Sequence record: NC_050153.1
DNA length: 64,000 bases
From: Escherichia phage vB_EcoM-Ro157c2YLVW
Direction: 5' to 3' (one strand)
Shown: in pieces, positions 32,073-39,429 of the stretch
Numbering within the stretch: position 1 is the first letter of the stretch
Layout of the letters: each line of letters starts with the position of its first letter
Notes under the pieces: model-generated
What the model was told of the DNA's origin: nothing
Databases searched by the model: none
What the model saw: the letters and a program-made list of their open reading frames with translations, nothing else
Made by a program: the position numbers and the translations under genes

Positions 32073-32428
32073 AGCACCACGTCCTGTGTGATAGTTATAT
32101 CCCTGATACGAATGGATATTTTCAACTTATCAAAAGCATCTCCCTCGGCTACTGACAAGCCAGAAATCGGTATGTCAGGTAAATCTACCGTCAGTTTTTG
32201 CAACAGCATTGCCTCAACCGCAATTTGAACATGCGACAAGTTGGTCGGTTCGTGTTTAAACTGCGGTAAAACATTGCCCCATGACGGATCTCCGTATACC
32301 TCACCCTGATAAGTGTTTAGCCACTCATATAAACGAGCGCCCCAGGCCTCCTCCTGGGACTCATACGTTTTTACGCCGGATAACTCCAGCGTCAGCAAAG
32401 GATCAATTTCGTTATTGTTGGCCATCAA
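32069..32428 (-). CDS. Baseplate protein (GpW/gp25-like, 119 aa)
   Basis: About 120-aa ORF directly downstream of the tape measure gene with overlapping stop/start. Confidence 0.4.
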   Translation of the reverse strand: MMANNNEIDPLLTLELSGVKTYESQEEAWGARLYEWLNTYQGEVYGDPSWGNVLPQFKHEPTNLSHVQIAVEAMLLQKLTVDLPDIPISGLSVAEGDAFDKLKISIRIRDITITQDVVL

Positions 32429-35400
32429 TCAACTCTCGCGTAGTCATTCATCAACGGATCATCAATTGACAGTGGTACCGTGCGCATAACGCCCGGCTGA
32501 GGCGTGCTGACCTTTACGACAGTTCCCTGGCCTTTCGCCGAGTCTTTGGTGTGCTCTTCAATCCTGGCAAGCAATGAGGTCATCTGCGCAAACAGCCGCT
32601 TCGTTTCACCATCAAGTGAAACGGTATTATCAGCCAACTGCATTGTCGGCTTGGCACCGGAGCCGCCAAGGTCACTAATAACCTGTCCGTCTATCTGCAT
32701 ACGACCGGTTGGTTGCTGCAAATCGTTGACGGCAGTCGTCACCTGGGACGTGGAGGCTGGTTCAGGCGCATTATTTTTCCGCATCCCCGGCGAGTTGCGG
32801 AGTTTATCGAATAGTCCATCAATCCCCATTTGTGCGCCGAGTTGGTCAAAGTAACTTGAGTTGCTGGCCACCGGACGCGCCTCTTCAACTGGCATCGGAG
32901 TATCAACATACACATTGCCAGCTGCTGTTGCGGTCCCCTTCCCTCGTGCACGTTCTTCGAGCGTTCCCTGAACGACTTCCCGACGCATACCCCGGCCATT
33001 CATGAATTTGTTGACCAGATCGTTAACGCCAACAGCATTGCCGATTTTGTCTACCAAACCGCCTTTCTCAAACGGGCTATCACCAGGGGTAAACGCCAGA
33101 CCAGTAGACTGATCGATAACGGCGTTATCAGGTAGTGGTTCCCTCACTCCATATTGCGCCCCACCCTGTGCTCCTGCCCCAGGTGTATAGATTTCACCAC
33201 CTAAATAGCGAGCACGATGAGTATTGACCTTGATCGCGTACTCACGGTTTTCCTTCGATAAGTCACCGGTGCCTTTTTTCCACTTATTAATAGTGCCAAA
33301 CCCAGCGTTATATGCAGTGATGGCCTCGTTTAAGTCTCCATTGGCTTGCTTCAGATACTTGCTCATGAGAAGAGCCGCAGCTTCTGCCGATTTCACAGGA
33401 TCAAACGATTCACCTTCAGCTAAGCCAGTCTCTTCACGAGCAATGCCCGTGAACTGAAACATTCCTAGAGCACCAGTTTGGGATTTTGCGTACGGATTAC
33501 CACCAGATTCAGTTGCAGCAATCGCGTAAAGAGTGCCTTCAGGAAGACCATATTTATTCTCCAGTTCAGCAAAATACGGAGCTAACTTATCGAGATTTGC
33601 CTTACCTTCAGCGCCAAGGCTTCCGACTTTTACATCTAAGTTGCCATTATTGTAGGTATCAGCAGCTTTCTGAATGTCATTCCTGGTGCCGGTGGTATTA
33701 CGCGACGATGATGACGAGCTATTTTGTCCAATAGCTGAATCAATTTTCCGCACCGCGCTATTGCCCGTTTCTACGGCATTTGCATTGATAATCTGATTGG
33801 CAGTTTCTTTAACTGTTTTATTGCTATCTTTCGCCGTGTCCAGTGCCGCATTTATCACGCGGGTAGCAATATTAGTCTGTTTAGCATCGGATTCAGTTTT
33901 AGAATCAGATGTCTCCTGGTGGCTATTAACCGGAGCTTTTAACTCTGGAGTGATTTCTTTTGCATTAGCCTCGCCGATCGGATTGGGTATTTTTGATACA
34001 ATCATTGCCGCAGGGGTATTTTTAACGGCATCAACCGCTGCATCTAATGCTTTACCGGGTAAACTTTTAACCCCATCCCAAATATTACCAGCCGCCTCTT
34101 TAATGTGTTTTCCTGGGTTCTTAATGAAGTCAATTGCACTATCAATTGCATCACTGAAAACCTGTTTCAGGTTATCGACAGTAAAGAAGTCTTTTATGGC
34201 ATCCAGCTTTTCAAGCAACTTATTAGATGTATCGCTAAACCATGCTGAAACAGCATCACCAATCTTTGCTGTGTAATCATCGAACTTGGTAGAAATGGTG
34301 TCGCCAAGGTTAGAAATATATGTTTCTAAGTTGGTAACCCCACTATCAATGGCCTGGGCAATACTTTCCGTCGAAAATGATTGCAACATATTGCCGATAT
34401 CCTCAAATCCAAGTGATTTGAGAACATCACCAATAGCACTGCTAATACCAGATACCAGTCCCCCCATATCGAGAACATTGGCTAACGTATAAGCGGCTTT
34501 TTGCTGGAATGATGGATCTTGTCCTGATTTAAGCCCAAACGCTCGACGTTGCGCTTCTGTATCATTCCAACCGGTTACCGCATCATAAATACCTCCAGCC
34601 ACTGTGCCGACTAGGGGAATTGCGCGTAACGCCCCTTTACCAACTGCCTTTAATCCAAGTTTACCTGCTGCCCGGGCAGCCAAATCTCCGCCTTCATGGG
34701 CGAGAGTCTTCTTGCCACCACCGCGTAGCATTCCTACAAGTTTCTTTGCCCCCAGAGCGCCAAAAGCGAGTGCTCCAGCTTTTTTCAGCATGCCACGCCC
34801 CATTAACAACGACGCGACGCCACCGGCCCCCTTCCCTAACAGGCTAAATAGTTTGGACAGCAAGCCGCCCTTCTTTTTACCGGTGTTTTTGGCTATCTGA
34901 TCAAGGGCGCGGAGAATCTTGTCATTGCCCTCTTTAATTTCGCTGGTCTGCTCCTGAAGTTCCTGAACCGTCCGTTTTTGGGTGTTAACCTGAACGACAT
35001 CGGCACTATTTTGCGATTTACGCCTAAAAAAACCTTTTCTACGGCTGTTATCGTCATTGCCACGAATCACATCGGCAATAGACTTTCTGGCACCATTAAG
35101 CGATCCACCAACTTCTTTTGATATCCCGCCAAGCTCCTTCCCTGCTGCCCACAATGGACCAGCAACGGCATAACCTAACGCATCGACGGCACGAGTCTCT
35201 GAAGGGTTGCCTATGCCTTCAGCTACTTTTGACAGTTTTTTTAATAAACCTGATTCAGCATTTAGACGCTCATCATCCTCTTTGCGCCTGGCCTTTTCAG
35301 CACGTTCAGCACGGGCATCTTCCGCTGCGGCCTTACTCCCTGACTTTCCAATAAAACGACCACGCGCATCGCGTTGGTTTTGGCTTTTTTGCGCACCGCC

Positions 35401-35817
35401 TTTTTGACCGAACATTTCGCGAGCGTGTTCGGCTGCTTCGGTCCGTTGCGCCTTTACATCTTCTGTTATAGCCTTCTTGCGTCGTTTTTTACCCTTTCGC
35501 GTAGTTGATTTGGCCTGCGGTTCCTGTAGAGCAACATCCTCCTGAACTACACGAGAAACGTCCCCTAAATTAAGCCGTTTCATTGCCTCAACAATAGGGT
35601 CCACTGATGGCGCATTGGCCACAAGGTCTGGCCGGGAATTTTCGATTGTGCGATTTAATGCCGACACACTGCGAGAGACAGGATCAACTGTAGCAACTCG
35701 CCCCCCTTTCAAATCTTCAACGGCTTCCCGAATACCTGCAAGCTCTTCCAGCTCTTTTGCGCTGGCGGTTTCAACCGTCCTTATCACATCGTCAATGTTG
35801 GCGTTTTTTCTTTCCAT
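32425..35817 (-). CDS. sit: Tape measure protein with lytic transglycosylase (SLT) domain (1130 aa)
   Basis: SLT signature …YAIAATESGGNPYAKSQTGALGMFQF…; long Gly/Ala/Lys-rich repeats; size. Confidence 0.8.
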   Translation of the reverse strand: MERKNANIDDVIRTVETASAKELEELAGIREAVEDLKGGRVATVDPVSRSVSALNRTIENSRPDLVANAPSVDPIVEAMKRLNLGDVSRVVQEDVALQEPQAKSTTRKGKKRRKKAITEDVKAQRTEAAEHAREMFGQKGGAQKSQNQRDARGRFIGKSGSKAAAEDARAERAEKARRKEDDERLNAESGLLKKLSKVAEGIGNPSETRAVDALGYAVAGPLWAAGKELGGISKEVGGSLNGARKSIADVIRGNDDNSRRKGFFRRKSQNSADVVQVNTQKRTVQELQEQTSEIKEGNDKILRALDQIAKNTGKKKGGLLSKLFSLLGKGAGGVASLLMGRGMLKKAGALAFGALGAKKLVGMLRGGGKKTLAHEGGDLAARAAGKLGLKAVGKGALRAIPLVGTVAGGIYDAVTGWNDTEAQRRAFGLKSGQDPSFQQKAAYTLANVLDMGGLVSGISSAIGDVLKSLGFEDIGNMLQSFSTESIAQAIDSGVTNLETYISNLGDTISTKFDDYTAKIGDAVSAWFSDTSNKLLEKLDAIKDFFTVDNLKQVFSDAIDSAIDFIKNPGKHIKEAAGNIWDGVKSLPGKALDAAVDAVKNTPAAMIVSKIPNPIGEANAKEITPELKAPVNSHQETSDSKTESDAKQTNIATRVINAALDTAKDSNKTVKETANQIINANAVETGNSAVRKIDSAIGQNSSSSSSRNTTGTRNDIQKAADTYNNGNLDVKVGSLGAEGKANLDKLAPYFAELENKYGLPEGTLYAIAATESGGNPYAKSQTGALGMFQFTGIAREETGLAEGESFDPVKSAEAAALLMSKYLKQANGDLNEAITAYNAGFGTINKWKKGTGDLSKENREYAIKVNTHRARYLGGEIYTPGAGAQGGAQYGVREPLPDNAVIDQSTGLAFTPGDSPFEKGGLVDKIGNAVGVNDLVNKFMNGRGMRREVVQGTLEERARGKGTATAAGNVYVDTPMPVEEARPVASNSSYFDQLGAQMGIDGLFDKLRNSPGMRKNNAPEPASTSQVTTAVNDLQQPTGRMQIDGQVISDLGGSGAKPTMQLADNTVSLDGETKRLFAQMTSLLARIEEHTKDSAKGQGTVVKVSTPQPGVMRTVPLSIDDPLMNDYARVD

Positions 35818-37416: not shown

Positions 37417-38007
<591 letters not shown>

Positions 38008-38041
38008 TTAACCGATTCTACGAGTAGTCATTTGTGACAGG

Positions 38042-38518
38042 TCATTTTGCGCGCTTCAGGCAGCCATCTTCAGGTGCCGCGTTGAAAAGCTCTGCGGCCT
38101 TACGTAGCGTAAATGTTGCGATTTTTTTTCCGTCTACGTATGCATCGAATGTTTTAACTTCCATATCAGGGGTATCTGACCAAAAACCATACCAGTAACT
38201 ATCACCCACAGAGGAACCGATAGAACTGATAGGATATTCATCATCACCAACTTTCAGCGTTATTTGTTCTTTTTTAGCATCAAATGACTCACCGCCAGGT
38301 TCTGTTTTCATGAGAGTGAGTAGTCGTGTTCCTACTTGATTGGGATCCGTATTATTAAATTCAACATCGCACTCAAATGTAAGCGTATAATTATCTTTGC
38401 TGGAAACAGCATAAGAACGAACACCATGAGTCTCGCCGGTTGACCATTTGCTTACATTTGCCATTGATGAAAACGGAGTAAGCAAAGCAATAACTAGTAA
38501 AAATCGTTTGATGCGCAT
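38042..38518 (-). CDS. Secreted protein with signal peptide (158 aa)
   Basis: N-terminal MRIKRFLLVIALLTPFSSMA signal sequence. Confidence 0.5.
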   Translation of the reverse strand: MRIKRFLLVIALLTPFSSMANVSKWSTGETHGVRSYAVSSKDNYTLTFECDVEFNNTDPNQVGTRLLTLMKTEPGGESFDAKKEQITLKVGDDEYPISSIGSSVGDSYWYGFWSDTPDMEVKTFDAYVDGKKIATFTLRKAAELFNAAPEDGCLKRAK

Positions 38519-38569
38519 TAATTTATCTCCTTTGGATATTAATATTTTAATTAGTTAACCACCATATAT

Positions 38570-39214
38570 TCACCATTCATAGGGTAAATTAAGCGCTTTT
38601 AAACCTTGCTGGAAAGTATTAAGAGATCCGTTTTTTTGTTGTTCCATTTTTTCGCGTGCAGCTTTCTCATACTGCTCCATCCGTTGGTTATACTCTTGCA
38701 ATTCCTCCGGGGAGAGGTTTCCCATTGGGGAGTTTGTACCCGGCCCCCTGGCCCGTTCTTCAAGCGTACCCTGAACGTTTTGATGGCGCATTCCCGGTGA
38801 GTTTCTGATTGAATCAATGCCATTTCTTCCAACGTCTTCTTTATTAACGGCATTGCTCGCCACCAGCACACCCCAGCTAGGAATAGCAAAATCAGGAGCG
38901 GTTTCGCATGCCTTTACCATATAATCGAAAGAGCTTCGATTGATCTCGTTTGCGTCGGGATTTAACAGGCGAGAATATTGATATTTAGCATTTTCGTTGG
39001 TTGCGACTTTATACAGTTCTTGCTGCACCATCGCTTCAGAAAGTTTAAGGCGTTTCATATCTGACAGTAACTTCTTGCGCATGGATTCGTCTTGACTGAC
39101 AGCAAAGCCGTAAACGTGCCCAAGGTATTTCGTATAATCGGTACAAATCTCCTTTACGCTTGATGCTGCATTAACAGTCCCAGCCATAAATAATAACGGT
39201 AGTAATAGTTTTCT
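38570..39214 (-). CDS. Secreted protein (possible Sim-like superinfection-exclusion candidate) carrying a motif shared with the tape measure protein
   Basis: Signal peptide MRKLLLPLLFMAGTVNA (start at internal ATG); C-terminal IRNSPGMRHQNVQGTLEERARGPGT matches two segments of the tape measure protein. Confidence 0.5.
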   Translation of the reverse strand, partial: RKLLLPLLFMAGTVNAASSVKEICTDYTKYLGHVYGFAVSQDESMRKKLLSDMKRLKLSEAMVQQELYKVATNENAKYQYSRLLNPDANEINRSSFDYMVKACETAPDFAIPSWGVLVASNAVNKEDVGRNGIDSIRNSPGMRHQNVQGTLEERARGPGTNSPMGNLSPEELQEYNQRMEQYEKAAREKMEQQKNGSLNTFQQGLKALNLPYEW

Positions 39215-39322
39215 CATTATAACCTCACCTGCCTTATAACTCATTTAGGGTACATATTTTCGCCTTTAAAAAAAAGAGGTTATTAGATCCAGTTGTGTAT
39301 TTACTAATCAGATAATGCTCTA

Positions 39323-39339
39323 ATAGATTTGTATTTTTA
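39323..39339. promoter_or_regulatory. C1-operator-like site upstream of the right immunity-I module
   Basis: aatgctctaatagattt, two mismatches to consensus. Confidence 0.45.
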
Positions 39340-39429
39340 AGTCGCGAATGCTATCTTTTCGCATCATATTGACCTTTTAATCGTTCAGGCTTATAGTTCC
39401 GCCGTCGTAGCAAATTCTGCGACCGGGTT

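What the first reader, a model, noticed from the sequence alone, without database searches (positions are those of the whole stretch)
38570..39214. Secreted protein shares an RNSPGMR…VQGTLEERARG motif with the tape measure / transglycosylase protein
The periplasmic protein contains IRNSPGMRHQNVQGTLEERARGPGT. The tape measure protein (32425..35817) carries the two halves separately (…LRNSPGMRKNN… and …GRGMRREVVQGTLEERARGKGT…). A secreted protein mimicking a motif of the injected tape measure protein would fit a superinfection-exclusion mechanism that competes for a periplasmic partner or processing site.
Basis: seen in the sequence. Interest (0 to 1): 0.5.

Follow-up and report, generated by a model that had tools for sequence, protein, structure and literature searches.

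The report
Exported P1 protein copies tape-measure motif
A P1-like phage-plasmid encodes a secreted protein, the intact form of the broken 'simA' gene of phage P1, whose flexible tail carries a conserved ~30-residue copy of a motif from the phage's own injected tape-measure protein; it sits where P1 keeps its superinfection-exclusion genes, so it is a testable candidate decoy that blocks incoming phage.

Summary
ORF 38570..39217(-) and the tape-measure/transglycosylase Sit (32425..35817(-)) share a ~30-40 residue motif (BLASTP E=7e-9; SW score 101 vs at most 71 in 1000 shuffles; profile-profile E=8.6e-8). One correction: Sit site 1 carries the whole motif. Site 2 is a partial repeat found only in the P1 clade.

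The ORF is the full-length form of P1 simA, which in P1 is a 45-residue remnant. It opens a two-gene cassette of exported proteins lying between late promoter LPsit and operator Oc4. This cassette is allelic with P1 simB-simC, the classical superinfection-exclusion locus.

The predicted protein has a signal peptide, a roughly 105-residue helical domain with two invariant cysteines, and a disordered tail carrying the motif. N-x-x-G-M-R-x-Q is the only invariant element of that tail across the whole small family, which has 11 clusters among 1.84 billion proteins. Synonymous sites are scrambled, so selection acts on the peptide.

Exclusion by tape-measure mimicry is the best-supported reading (about 0.45). 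It rests on position and anatomy, not experiment. The partner of the motif is unknown.

The parts
38570..39217 (-). It is the full-length SimA-family protein (phrog_3933).
   Evidence: ORF list. The Shine-Dalgarno GGTGAGG lies before the ATG at 39217, and all homologues start at the equivalent Met. P1 SimA (52 aa) equals its first 45 residues. phrog_3933 matches at E=1e-136.
39167..39217 (-). Sec signal peptide MRKLLLPLLFMAGTVNA, with cleavage predicted after VNA. There is no lipobox.
   Evidence: Translation. The n/h/c pattern is read from the sequence and is conserved in all homologues.
38843..39166 (-). Helical globular domain (residues ~18-125 of the precursor) with two invariant cysteines (C25 and C104 of the precursor).
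38738..38818 (-). Sit-like linear motif IDSIRNSPGMRHQNVQGTLEERARGPG in a predicted disordered tail.
   Evidence: pLDDT is below 50 over residues 131-168. N, G, (M), R and Q are the only invariant tail positions in the family.
38573..38737 (-). Variable C-terminal extension (predicted long helix, ending LPYEW). It is absent or replaced in other family members.
   Evidence: Alignments. A 163-residue allele ends right after the motif, at ...ERARGPGVAP*.
38042..38518 (-). Second cassette gene: an exported beta-rich YfjT-family protein (phrog_3429, PF27224) with a signal peptide and two invariant cysteines.
32425..35817 (-). sit: tape-measure protein with an SLT transglycosylase domain.
   Evidence: Pfam SLT E=2e-27. 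P1 annotation. Called TMP in PMC10695390 and PMC12810830.
33247..33576 (-). SLT lytic transglycosylase domain of Sit (residues 748-857).
32935..33030 (-). Sit motif site 1 (complete motif), ~75 residues downstream of the SLT domain. It is nearly invariant in P1-like and D6-like Sit.
32770..32826 (-). Sit motif site 2, a partial repeat (first half only, exact RNSPGMR) inside a P1-clade-specific insertion. It is a local island of allelic variation.
38015..38033 (-). Late promoter LPsit equivalent. Left boundary of the variable cassette.
   Evidence: Transfer of the P1 annotation through an ungapped alignment. Homology of P1, P7 and the window ends at ~38036-38041.
39315..39331 (+). C1 operator Oc4 equivalent (one mismatch to P1), adjacent to the predicted PsimA promoter region. 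Right limit of the variable slot.
   Evidence: P1 annotation transferred through the alignment.

Best explanation
ORF 38570..39217(-) is the intact form of simA, the first gene of the 'sim' slot of P1-family phage-plasmids.

Its product is exported by Sec into the periplasm. The mature protein is a ~105-residue, probably disulfide-bonded, helical domain followed by a flexible tail. The tail displays a ~27-35 residue short linear motif (G-I/V-D/N-x-L/I...N-x-x-G-M-R-x-x-x-V-x-G-T-L-x-E-R-A-R-G). The same motif lies just downstream of the transglycosylase domain in the C-terminal, tip-proximal part of the tape-measure protein Sit, the part that reaches the periplasm when a P1-type virion fires.

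Most likely SimA works with the co-transcribed exported partner (here the YfjT-like ORF158; in other alleles a SimC homologue) as an envelope-level superinfection-exclusion or entry-interference device. The tail would act as a decoy of the Sit motif. It could occupy whatever periplasmic or inner-membrane partner that motif must engage. Alternatively it could insert into the Sit assembly in place of a Sit copy. Either way the incoming genome would not cross the envelope.

Shown: the motif identity, its selection at the peptide level, the export signals, the domain/tail architecture and the allelic position with simBC.
Inferred: periplasmic encounter with Sit, the decoy action and the exclusion phenotype.
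For: (1) The motif is real and specific.

(2) It is under peptide-level selection, not recent gene conversion. Between the two genes only 7 of 19 identical residues use the same codon. Among SimA orthologues the conserved residues use scrambled codons. The most divergent member (P0037, 38% identity in the domain) still has NAPGMRHQAVKGSMAERARG.

(3) In IMG/VR the back-translated pattern occurs only in Sit-type or SimA-type contexts, apart from one chance hit. In 50,697 phage records it occurs only in P1/D6-like Sit and in JK004.

(4) The architecture fits a displayed linear motif: a confident helical domain and a tail with pLDDT below 50. A natural 163-residue allele, seen in 13 IMG/VR loci, ends three residues after the motif.

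(5) Locus:
- The cassette fills exactly the slot between LPsit and Oc4.
- In P1 that slot holds the simA remnant plus simB and simC.
- In P7 it holds two other exported proteins.
- L052 has an intact SimA followed by a SimC homologue.
- sim causes superinfection exclusion (references 56-57 in PMC8546580).

(6) There are precedents for exclusion proteins that act on the tape measure or tail lysozyme: T4 Imm binds the TMP (preprint 10.64898/2026.03.06.709160), T4 Spackle binds gp5 lysozyme (PMC7677548), and Ltp and HK97 gp15 are escaped through the TMP (PMC10883804). The HK97 TMP needs a periplasmic chaperone and an inner-membrane protein (Cumby 2015, cited).

(7) Operon coupling: the gap between the two genes is 3-5 nt in D6-like relatives.
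Against: No experiment exists.

In P1 the exclusion phenotype is attributed to simC, with simA truncated (annotation). SimA is therefore not needed for SimC-type exclusion, and the sim genes are dispensable for plaque formation.

About half of the family (type b: L005-L008, JK004) keeps only N-x-x-G-M-R-x-Q and has lost the VQGTLxERARG half.

Matching between a phage's SimA motif and its own Sit motif is only weakly better than random (permutation p about 0.04-0.05, not corrected for relatedness; no signal over the full 26 residues, p=0.46).

The partner of the motif is unknown, and nothing similar was found in PDB sequences. The motif region has low model confidence, so 'disordered' is itself a prediction. 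Expression in lysogens is only inferred from promoters predicted in the P1 annotation. The simple promoter scan found no strong site on the minus strand.
Confidence: 0.45

Rival explanations
1. Spackle-like neutralisation of the tail transglycosylase. The cassette proteins bind the SLT domain of incoming Sit and inhibit cell-wall digestion, giving exclusion or protection from lysis-from-without. The SimA tail would not be a competitor for a host factor. It would be a tether that replaces the Sit segment normally lying next to the SLT domain.
For: SimA's mature domain is a small periplasmic helical bundle with a conserved cysteine pair, like T4 Spackle (PMC7677548). Sit site 1 lies only ~75 residues after the SLT domain. 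The partner YfjT-like gene has two deep types that mostly travel with the two deep SLT-domain types, across both the P1 clade and the D6-like clade. All intervening genes meanwhile follow the clade. The window and L036 differ only in the cassette and in a 620-nt SLT block 4.3 kb away.
Confidence: 0.2
2. Shared handle for a host periplasmic factor, without any role in exclusion. On this reading both Sit and SimA carry a docking or processing motif for a host chaperone or protease that each needs for its own folding, stability or turnover. SimA's real job would be some other lysogenic-conversion function in the envelope.
For: The motif is a conserved linear element in flexible, non-globular sequence in both proteins. 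At least one TMP is known to depend on a periplasmic chaperone (HK97/FkpA, cited). The SimA helical domain is itself well conserved and of unknown function.
Against: The motif is confined to these two gene families of one phage lineage, which is odd for a generic host-factor signal. The gene sits in the exclusion slot and pairs with a SimC homologue in L052. If both proteins use the same host factor, competition with incoming Sit would follow anyway.
Confidence: 0.15
3. Evolutionary relic. A piece of sit was once captured into simA, or the reverse, by illegitimate recombination between genes 5 kb apart, and it persists without a function of its own.
For: The two genes are close together on the same strand. 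Sit itself shows a local partial duplication of the motif, so this sequence has been copied before.
Against: Synonymous sites are randomised while the residues are kept in both families. The motif core is the only invariant part of an otherwise freely varying tail, and it is kept at 38% domain identity. A neutral relic would have decayed.
Confidence: 0.05

Closest known systems
P1 sim (superimmunity) locus: simA-simB-simC, SimC being the exported exclusion protein
   Same: It occupies the same genomic slot, between late promoter LPsit and operator Oc4, on the same strand. Its products are also exported. The first 45 residues and the upstream region are identical to P1 simA. An intact SimA is found next to a SimC homologue in L052.
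   Different: ORF224 and ORF158 have no detectable similarity to SimC or SimB. P1's SimA is a truncated remnant that lacks the domain and the motif, so the Sit-like motif cannot be seen in P1 itself. The exclusion phenotype has been tested only for the P1 allele.
T4 Spackle (periplasmic inhibitor of the tail lysozyme gp5)
   Same: It is a small Sec-exported helical-bundle protein with a cysteine pair, phage-encoded, and aimed at the cell-wall-digesting part of the injection machinery of the same phage type (PMC7677548).
   Different: There is no sequence or fold match. Spackle has no tail that copies part of its target. Binding of SimA to the SLT domain is untested.
T4 Imm, HK97 gp15, TP-J34 Ltp: exclusion proteins acting on tape-measure-mediated DNA entry
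   Same: The proposed step is the same: DNA entry is blocked after adsorption through the tape-measure protein.
   Different: Those are inner-membrane proteins or lipoproteins that bind the TMP. SimA-like has no membrane helix beyond the signal peptide and no lipobox. It resembles a piece of the TMP rather than a TMP binder.
SNIPE homologues with N-terminal adaptors derived from injection proteins (P22 tail-needle homology)
   Same: A defence or exclusion protein re-uses a module of the phage penetration apparatus, presumably to reach the injection site (PMC13190303).
   Different: SNIPE is a host-encoded cytoplasmic-face nuclease. Here the carrier is phage-encoded and periplasmic, has no enzymatic domain, and borrows a short linear motif rather than a folded domain.

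Membership tests
SimA family (phrog_3933; 'SimA domain protein' in NCBI/UniRef names) | Sequence match over the whole protein to the family profile, and identity with the P1 SimA N-terminus | tested here: met
   phrog_3933 matches at E=1e-136 over residues 10-224. P1 SimA equals residues 1-45. Homologues are named 'simA domain protein'.
SimA family | Position: first gene of the slot between Oc4 (c4/icd/ant side) and LPsit-pmgC-tub-pmgB-sit | tested here: met
P1 SimC exclusion protein | Homology to SimC | tested here: not met
   BLASTP E is at least 0.8 for both ORF224 and ORF158. hhalign of the YfjT family against SimC gives probability 0.3%.
P1 SimC exclusion protein | Blocks P1 infection after adsorption when expressed | not testable with these tools
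   Needs plating and DNA-entry assays.
Tape-measure protein (Sit family, phrog_2533) | Full-length match, hydrophobic segments and SLT domain | tested here: not met
   Only residues 138-180 match profile positions 929-972 of 1130. There is no SLT hit.
T4 Spackle-type periplasmic lysozyme inhibitor | Fold or sequence similarity to Spackle | tested here: not met
T4 Spackle-type periplasmic lysozyme inhibitor | Binds and inhibits the tail muralytic domain | not testable with these tools
   No complex prediction or assay was available. The only hint is the covariation of the partner gene with the SLT type.
Inner-membrane exclusion proteins (T4 Imm, HK97 gp15, P22 SieA) | Transmembrane helices in the mature protein | tested here: not met
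   The only hydrophobic stretch is the cleavable signal peptide. The rest is a soluble helical domain plus a polar tail.
Ltp/Llp-type exclusion lipoproteins | Lipobox with Cys at +1 | tested here: not met
   The signal peptide ends VNA|ASS, and the first Cys is 8 residues into the mature protein.
PTP-like phytase (PF14566) | Score above the gathering threshold and a catalytic HCxxGxxR loop | tested here: not met
   The score is 26.4 bits against a cut-off of 27, and only part of the profile (47-132 of 158) is matched. There is no HCx5R in the sequence. The model is all-helical.

The most novel reading that the evidence does not exclude
SimA-like proteins would be the first exclusion factors that work by short-linear-motif mimicry of a tape-measure protein. 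A soluble periplasmic carrier would display the Sit motif and titrate the still unknown host (or Sit-Sit) contact that P1-type phages need to open the inner membrane. The motif would then be a direct handle to identify P1's entry factor. It would also help explain the 40-year-old sim phenotype as one allele of a modular, two-protein anti-Sit cassette whose second protein is matched to the type of Sit's transglycosylase domain.
Probability: 0.3. Interest if true: 0.75.

Novelty: new variant of a known kind. Interest (0 to 1): 0.55.

Why it matters
P1 is a classic model phage, and P1-like phage-plasmids are common carriers of resistance genes. Even so, how P1 DNA crosses the envelope, what the C-terminal part of Sit does, and how the sim locus excludes are all still unknown.

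The reference P1 genome carries a broken simA, which hid the fact that the ancestral gene copies a piece of the tape measure. The intact gene is at least as common in nature as the P1 allele: about 39 intact versus 24 remnant loci among 69 IMG/VR hits, and at least 81 plasmids in PLSDB, all annotated 'hypothetical'.

If the decoy idea holds, a 30-residue peptide becomes a probe for the entry partner of a contractile-tailed phage. It would also be a new principle for exclusion: mimic the injected protein rather than bind it. If it fails, the conserved motif still marks a functional site in Sit that deserves mutagenesis.

Tried and rejected
- Homology of ORF224 or ORF158 to P1 SimC/SimB or P7 Upf50.0/50.5: none.
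- Sit-like motifs in the other slot proteins (SimB, SimC, Upf50.0, Upf50.5, ORF158): none.
- Recent gene conversion between sit and simA: rejected from codon usage.
- PTP-like phytase assignment: rejected.
- PADLOC and NCBIfam: no hits.
- Distant homologues by exhaustive HMM search: the family is tiny, only 11 representatives, and no new context appeared.
- Sit C-terminal homologue search: only P1/D6-like fragments.
- Motif in solved structures: nothing.
- Cognate SimA-Sit covariation: marginal (p about 0.04-0.05 for the core, 0.46 for the full motif, uncorrected for relatedness), so left as inconclusive.
- YfjT-type/SLT-type coupling: suggestive, but too few independent lineages and several exceptions.
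- Lobocka et al. 2004 (P1 genome paper) could not be read, so I cannot exclude that it comments on simA.
- Resemblance of the motif to TonB/TolB boxes was considered by eye and rejected (own knowledge, not a tool result).

Full report
**What the window is**

The region is a P1-like (Punavirus) phage-plasmid. On the minus strand the gene order is sit (32425..35817), pmgB, tub, pmgC, then two small ORFs (38042..38518 and 38570..39244). On the plus strand c4/icd/ant1 follow. Sit carries a Pfam SLT domain (E=2e-27). It is treated as the P1 tape-measure protein in PMC10695390 and in the 2026 P1 cryo-EM paper PMC12810830, where it could not be resolved in the map.

**Check of the observation**

The quoted peptides are present. 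The similarity is significant by every test tried:
- BLASTP gives 23/47 identities, E=7e-9, with a second hit at E=0.004.
- Sit is the only non-self hit among 740 ORFs of the window.
- The Smith-Waterman score is 101, against a maximum of 71 in 1000 shuffles.
- The PHROG Sit profile hits ORF224 residues 138-180 at E=1.3e-7.
- The profile-profile comparison of the two families gives E=8.6e-8 over 40 columns.

Sit site 1 (GVNDLVNKFMNGRGMRREVVQGTLEERARGKG) holds the complete motif. Site 2 (GIDGLFDKLRNSPGMRKNN) is a partial tandem repeat inside a ~45-residue insertion. That insertion occurs only in P1-clade Sit and is absent from D6-like Sit.

**What the gene is**

- It is not a SimC homologue.
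- Its first 45 residues and its upstream region are identical to P1 simA, whose 52-codon ORF then diverges and stops. P1 simA is therefore a remnant, and this ORF is the intact gene. Databases name its homologues 'SimA domain protein' or 'hypothetical'.
- The likely start is the ATG at 39217. It has a good Shine-Dalgarno, and all homologues start there.
- The family is very small: 11 cluster representatives in 1.84 billion proteins. Wherever context is available, it lies in P1-like or D6-like phage-plasmids of Enterobacteria at the same position.
- Homology among P1, P7 and the window breaks exactly after LPsit on one side and at or near operator Oc4 on the other.
- The slot holds alternative pairs of exported proteins:
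  - SimA(215 aa) + YfjT-like type 1 (this window);
  - SimA(163 aa) + YfjT-like type 2 + a 357-residue protein;
  - SimA(212 aa) + a SimC homologue (L052);
  - SimA remnant + SimB + SimC (P1);
  - Upf50.5 + Upf50.0 (P7).
- The sim region is one of eight known variable regions of P1-like plasmids (PMC9603915).
- sim is the superinfection-exclusion determinant of P1 (Devlin 1982; Kliem & Dreiseikelmann 1989, as cited in PMC8546580).

**Anatomy of the protein**

- The signal peptide is MRKLLLPLLFMAGTVNA|ASS.
- Residues ~18-125 form a confidently predicted all-helical domain (pLDDT 84-92) with two invariant cysteines.
- Residues 131-168, which contain the motif, have pLDDT below 50. A low-confidence helix follows.
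- No fold relative was found.
- The borderline Pfam PTP-like-phytase hit fails its threshold and lacks the catalytic loop.

**Conservation**

In the family alignment, the only invariant positions after residue 130 are N139, G142, R144 and Q146, with M143 nearly so.

The extended half (x-V-x-G-T/S-L/M-x-E-R-A-R-G) is kept in the window type and in P0017, P0018 and P0034. It is also kept in the most divergent member, P0037, which has only 38% identity in the domain. So the whole motif is ancestral.

A subset (type b) has replaced the second half with a Cys...Cys module. A common natural allele stops three residues after the motif.

Codons for the conserved residues are scrambled, both between sit and simA and among simA orthologues. 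Selection therefore acts on the peptide, and recent gene conversion is excluded.

In Sit, site 1 is nearly invariant across 48 P1-clade sequences. Site 2 is a small island of allelic variation (RNSPGMRKNN / INARGMRSNN / RNAPGMRKSN) in an otherwise constant C-terminal 230 residues.

Outside these two gene families the motif was not found:
- not in 50,697 phage records;
- not in PDB sequences.

**Mechanism**

These steps are inferred. By general knowledge of long-tailed phages (my own knowledge), the tape measure's C-terminal end sits at the tail tip and leaves first. The SLT domain and the adjoining motif are therefore the parts of Sit that meet the periplasm.

A soluble periplasmic protein presenting the same motif on a flexible tail is well placed to compete with it or to join it. 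Recent work shows that exclusion proteins of contractile and non-contractile phages act on the tape measure or the tail lysozyme. A tape measure can also depend on a periplasmic chaperone and an inner-membrane protein (Cumby 2015, cited). Defence proteins that borrow modules of the penetration machinery exist too.

Together with the position in the sim slot, this makes exclusion by Sit-motif mimicry the best-supported reading. I put it at about 0.45.

**Weaknesses**

- There is no phenotype.
- SimA is dispensable for P1's own SimC-based exclusion.
- Half the motif is lost in type b members.
- Matching between cognate SimA and Sit motifs is only marginal.
- The partner is unknown.

**Rivals**

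- (a) A Spackle-like action on the SLT domain. The hint is that the partner gene's two deep types mostly co-occur with the two deep SLT types, while all intervening genes follow the clade. The window and L036 differ only in the cassette and in a 620-nt SLT block 4.3 kb away. However, there are exceptions and few independent lineages.
- (b) A shared handle for a host factor, without exclusion.
- (c) A neutral relic, which the conservation pattern contradicts.

**Novelty**

I found no paper that mentions the motif or the intact gene.

The kind of system is known: prophage-encoded, envelope-level interference with tape-measure-mediated entry. The feature of copying a linear motif of the injected protein appears to be new. 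I therefore rate it a new variant of a known kind, of moderate to good interest because it is directly testable in a classic model.

Noticed in passing
window 38042..38518 and 33247..33576; loci L036, L003, L008, L038, L040, L087, L220: The YfjT-like partner gene and the SLT domain of Sit each have two deep types (~30% and ~40% identity). These mostly co-occur across both the P1 clade and the D6-like clade, while all intervening genes follow the clade. The window and L036 are 96-99% identical except for the cassette and a 620-nt SLT block 4.3 kb away. The exceptions are L038/L040, L220 and JK004, and SimC cassettes occur with both SLT types.
   Followed up: partly
L052:7974-9451: A P1-clade element has an intact SimA-like gene (212/221 aa, motif NARGMRTQNTQGALERRALG) directly followed by a SimC homologue (34% identity to P1 SimC), with no SimB. 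SimA and SimC are therefore natural operon partners.
   Followed up: partly
L036:7974-10147: In the 163-residue SimA allele (ending ...ERARGPGVAP), the cassette carries a type-2 YfjT-like gene plus an extra 357-residue ORF of unknown function, overlapping by 14 nt.
   Followed up: no
window 38599..38889 (-): An alternative frame inside the 3' half of ORF224 stays open for 96 codons. Several database variants (P0002, P0004, P0007, P0008, P0016; 205 aa, mostly single Logan assemblies) shift into this frame at different positions. They are probably sequencing errors or pseudogenes, but the open frame is unusual.
   Followed up: no
window 32770..32905 (Sit residues ~971-1016): P1-clade Sit has a ~45-residue insertion that partially duplicates the preceding segment (IGNAVGVNDLVNKFMNGRGMRRE versus LGAQMGIDGLFDKLRNSPGMRKN). 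The repeat is the only variable island in the last 230 residues and has three alleles.
   Followed up: partly
window 38573..38587: The 215-residue allele ends in ...LPYEW. An aromatic C-terminus of this Y-x-aromatic kind resembles the C-terminal signals read by periplasmic PDZ proteases (own knowledge). Only this allele has it.
   Followed up: no
window 39315..39331: The Oc4-type C1 operator next to the simA start differs from P1 by one base (TAATAGATTT versus TAATAAATTT). The predicted PsimA promoter of the P1 annotation abuts this operator, so the cassette could be C1-regulated.
   Followed up: no
L002 (P7, NC_050152) 2208-2729: RefSeq names P7 upf50.5 'DNA methyltransferase', although the original annotation and the sequence (lipobox, Gly/Ala-rich) indicate an outer-membrane lipoprotein. 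This is a likely annotation error.
   Followed up: no
L011, L012; protein P0031: P1-like sequences (simA, Sit C-terminus) occur in records labelled Candidatus Paenibacillus intestinavium MAG, Bacillota MAG and Bacillus altitudinis. This is probably mis-binning or contamination.
   Followed up: no
window 38000..39400: The cassette has lower G+C (0.37-0.46) than its flanks (about 0.47-0.51). [quoted passage not shown]
   Followed up: partly
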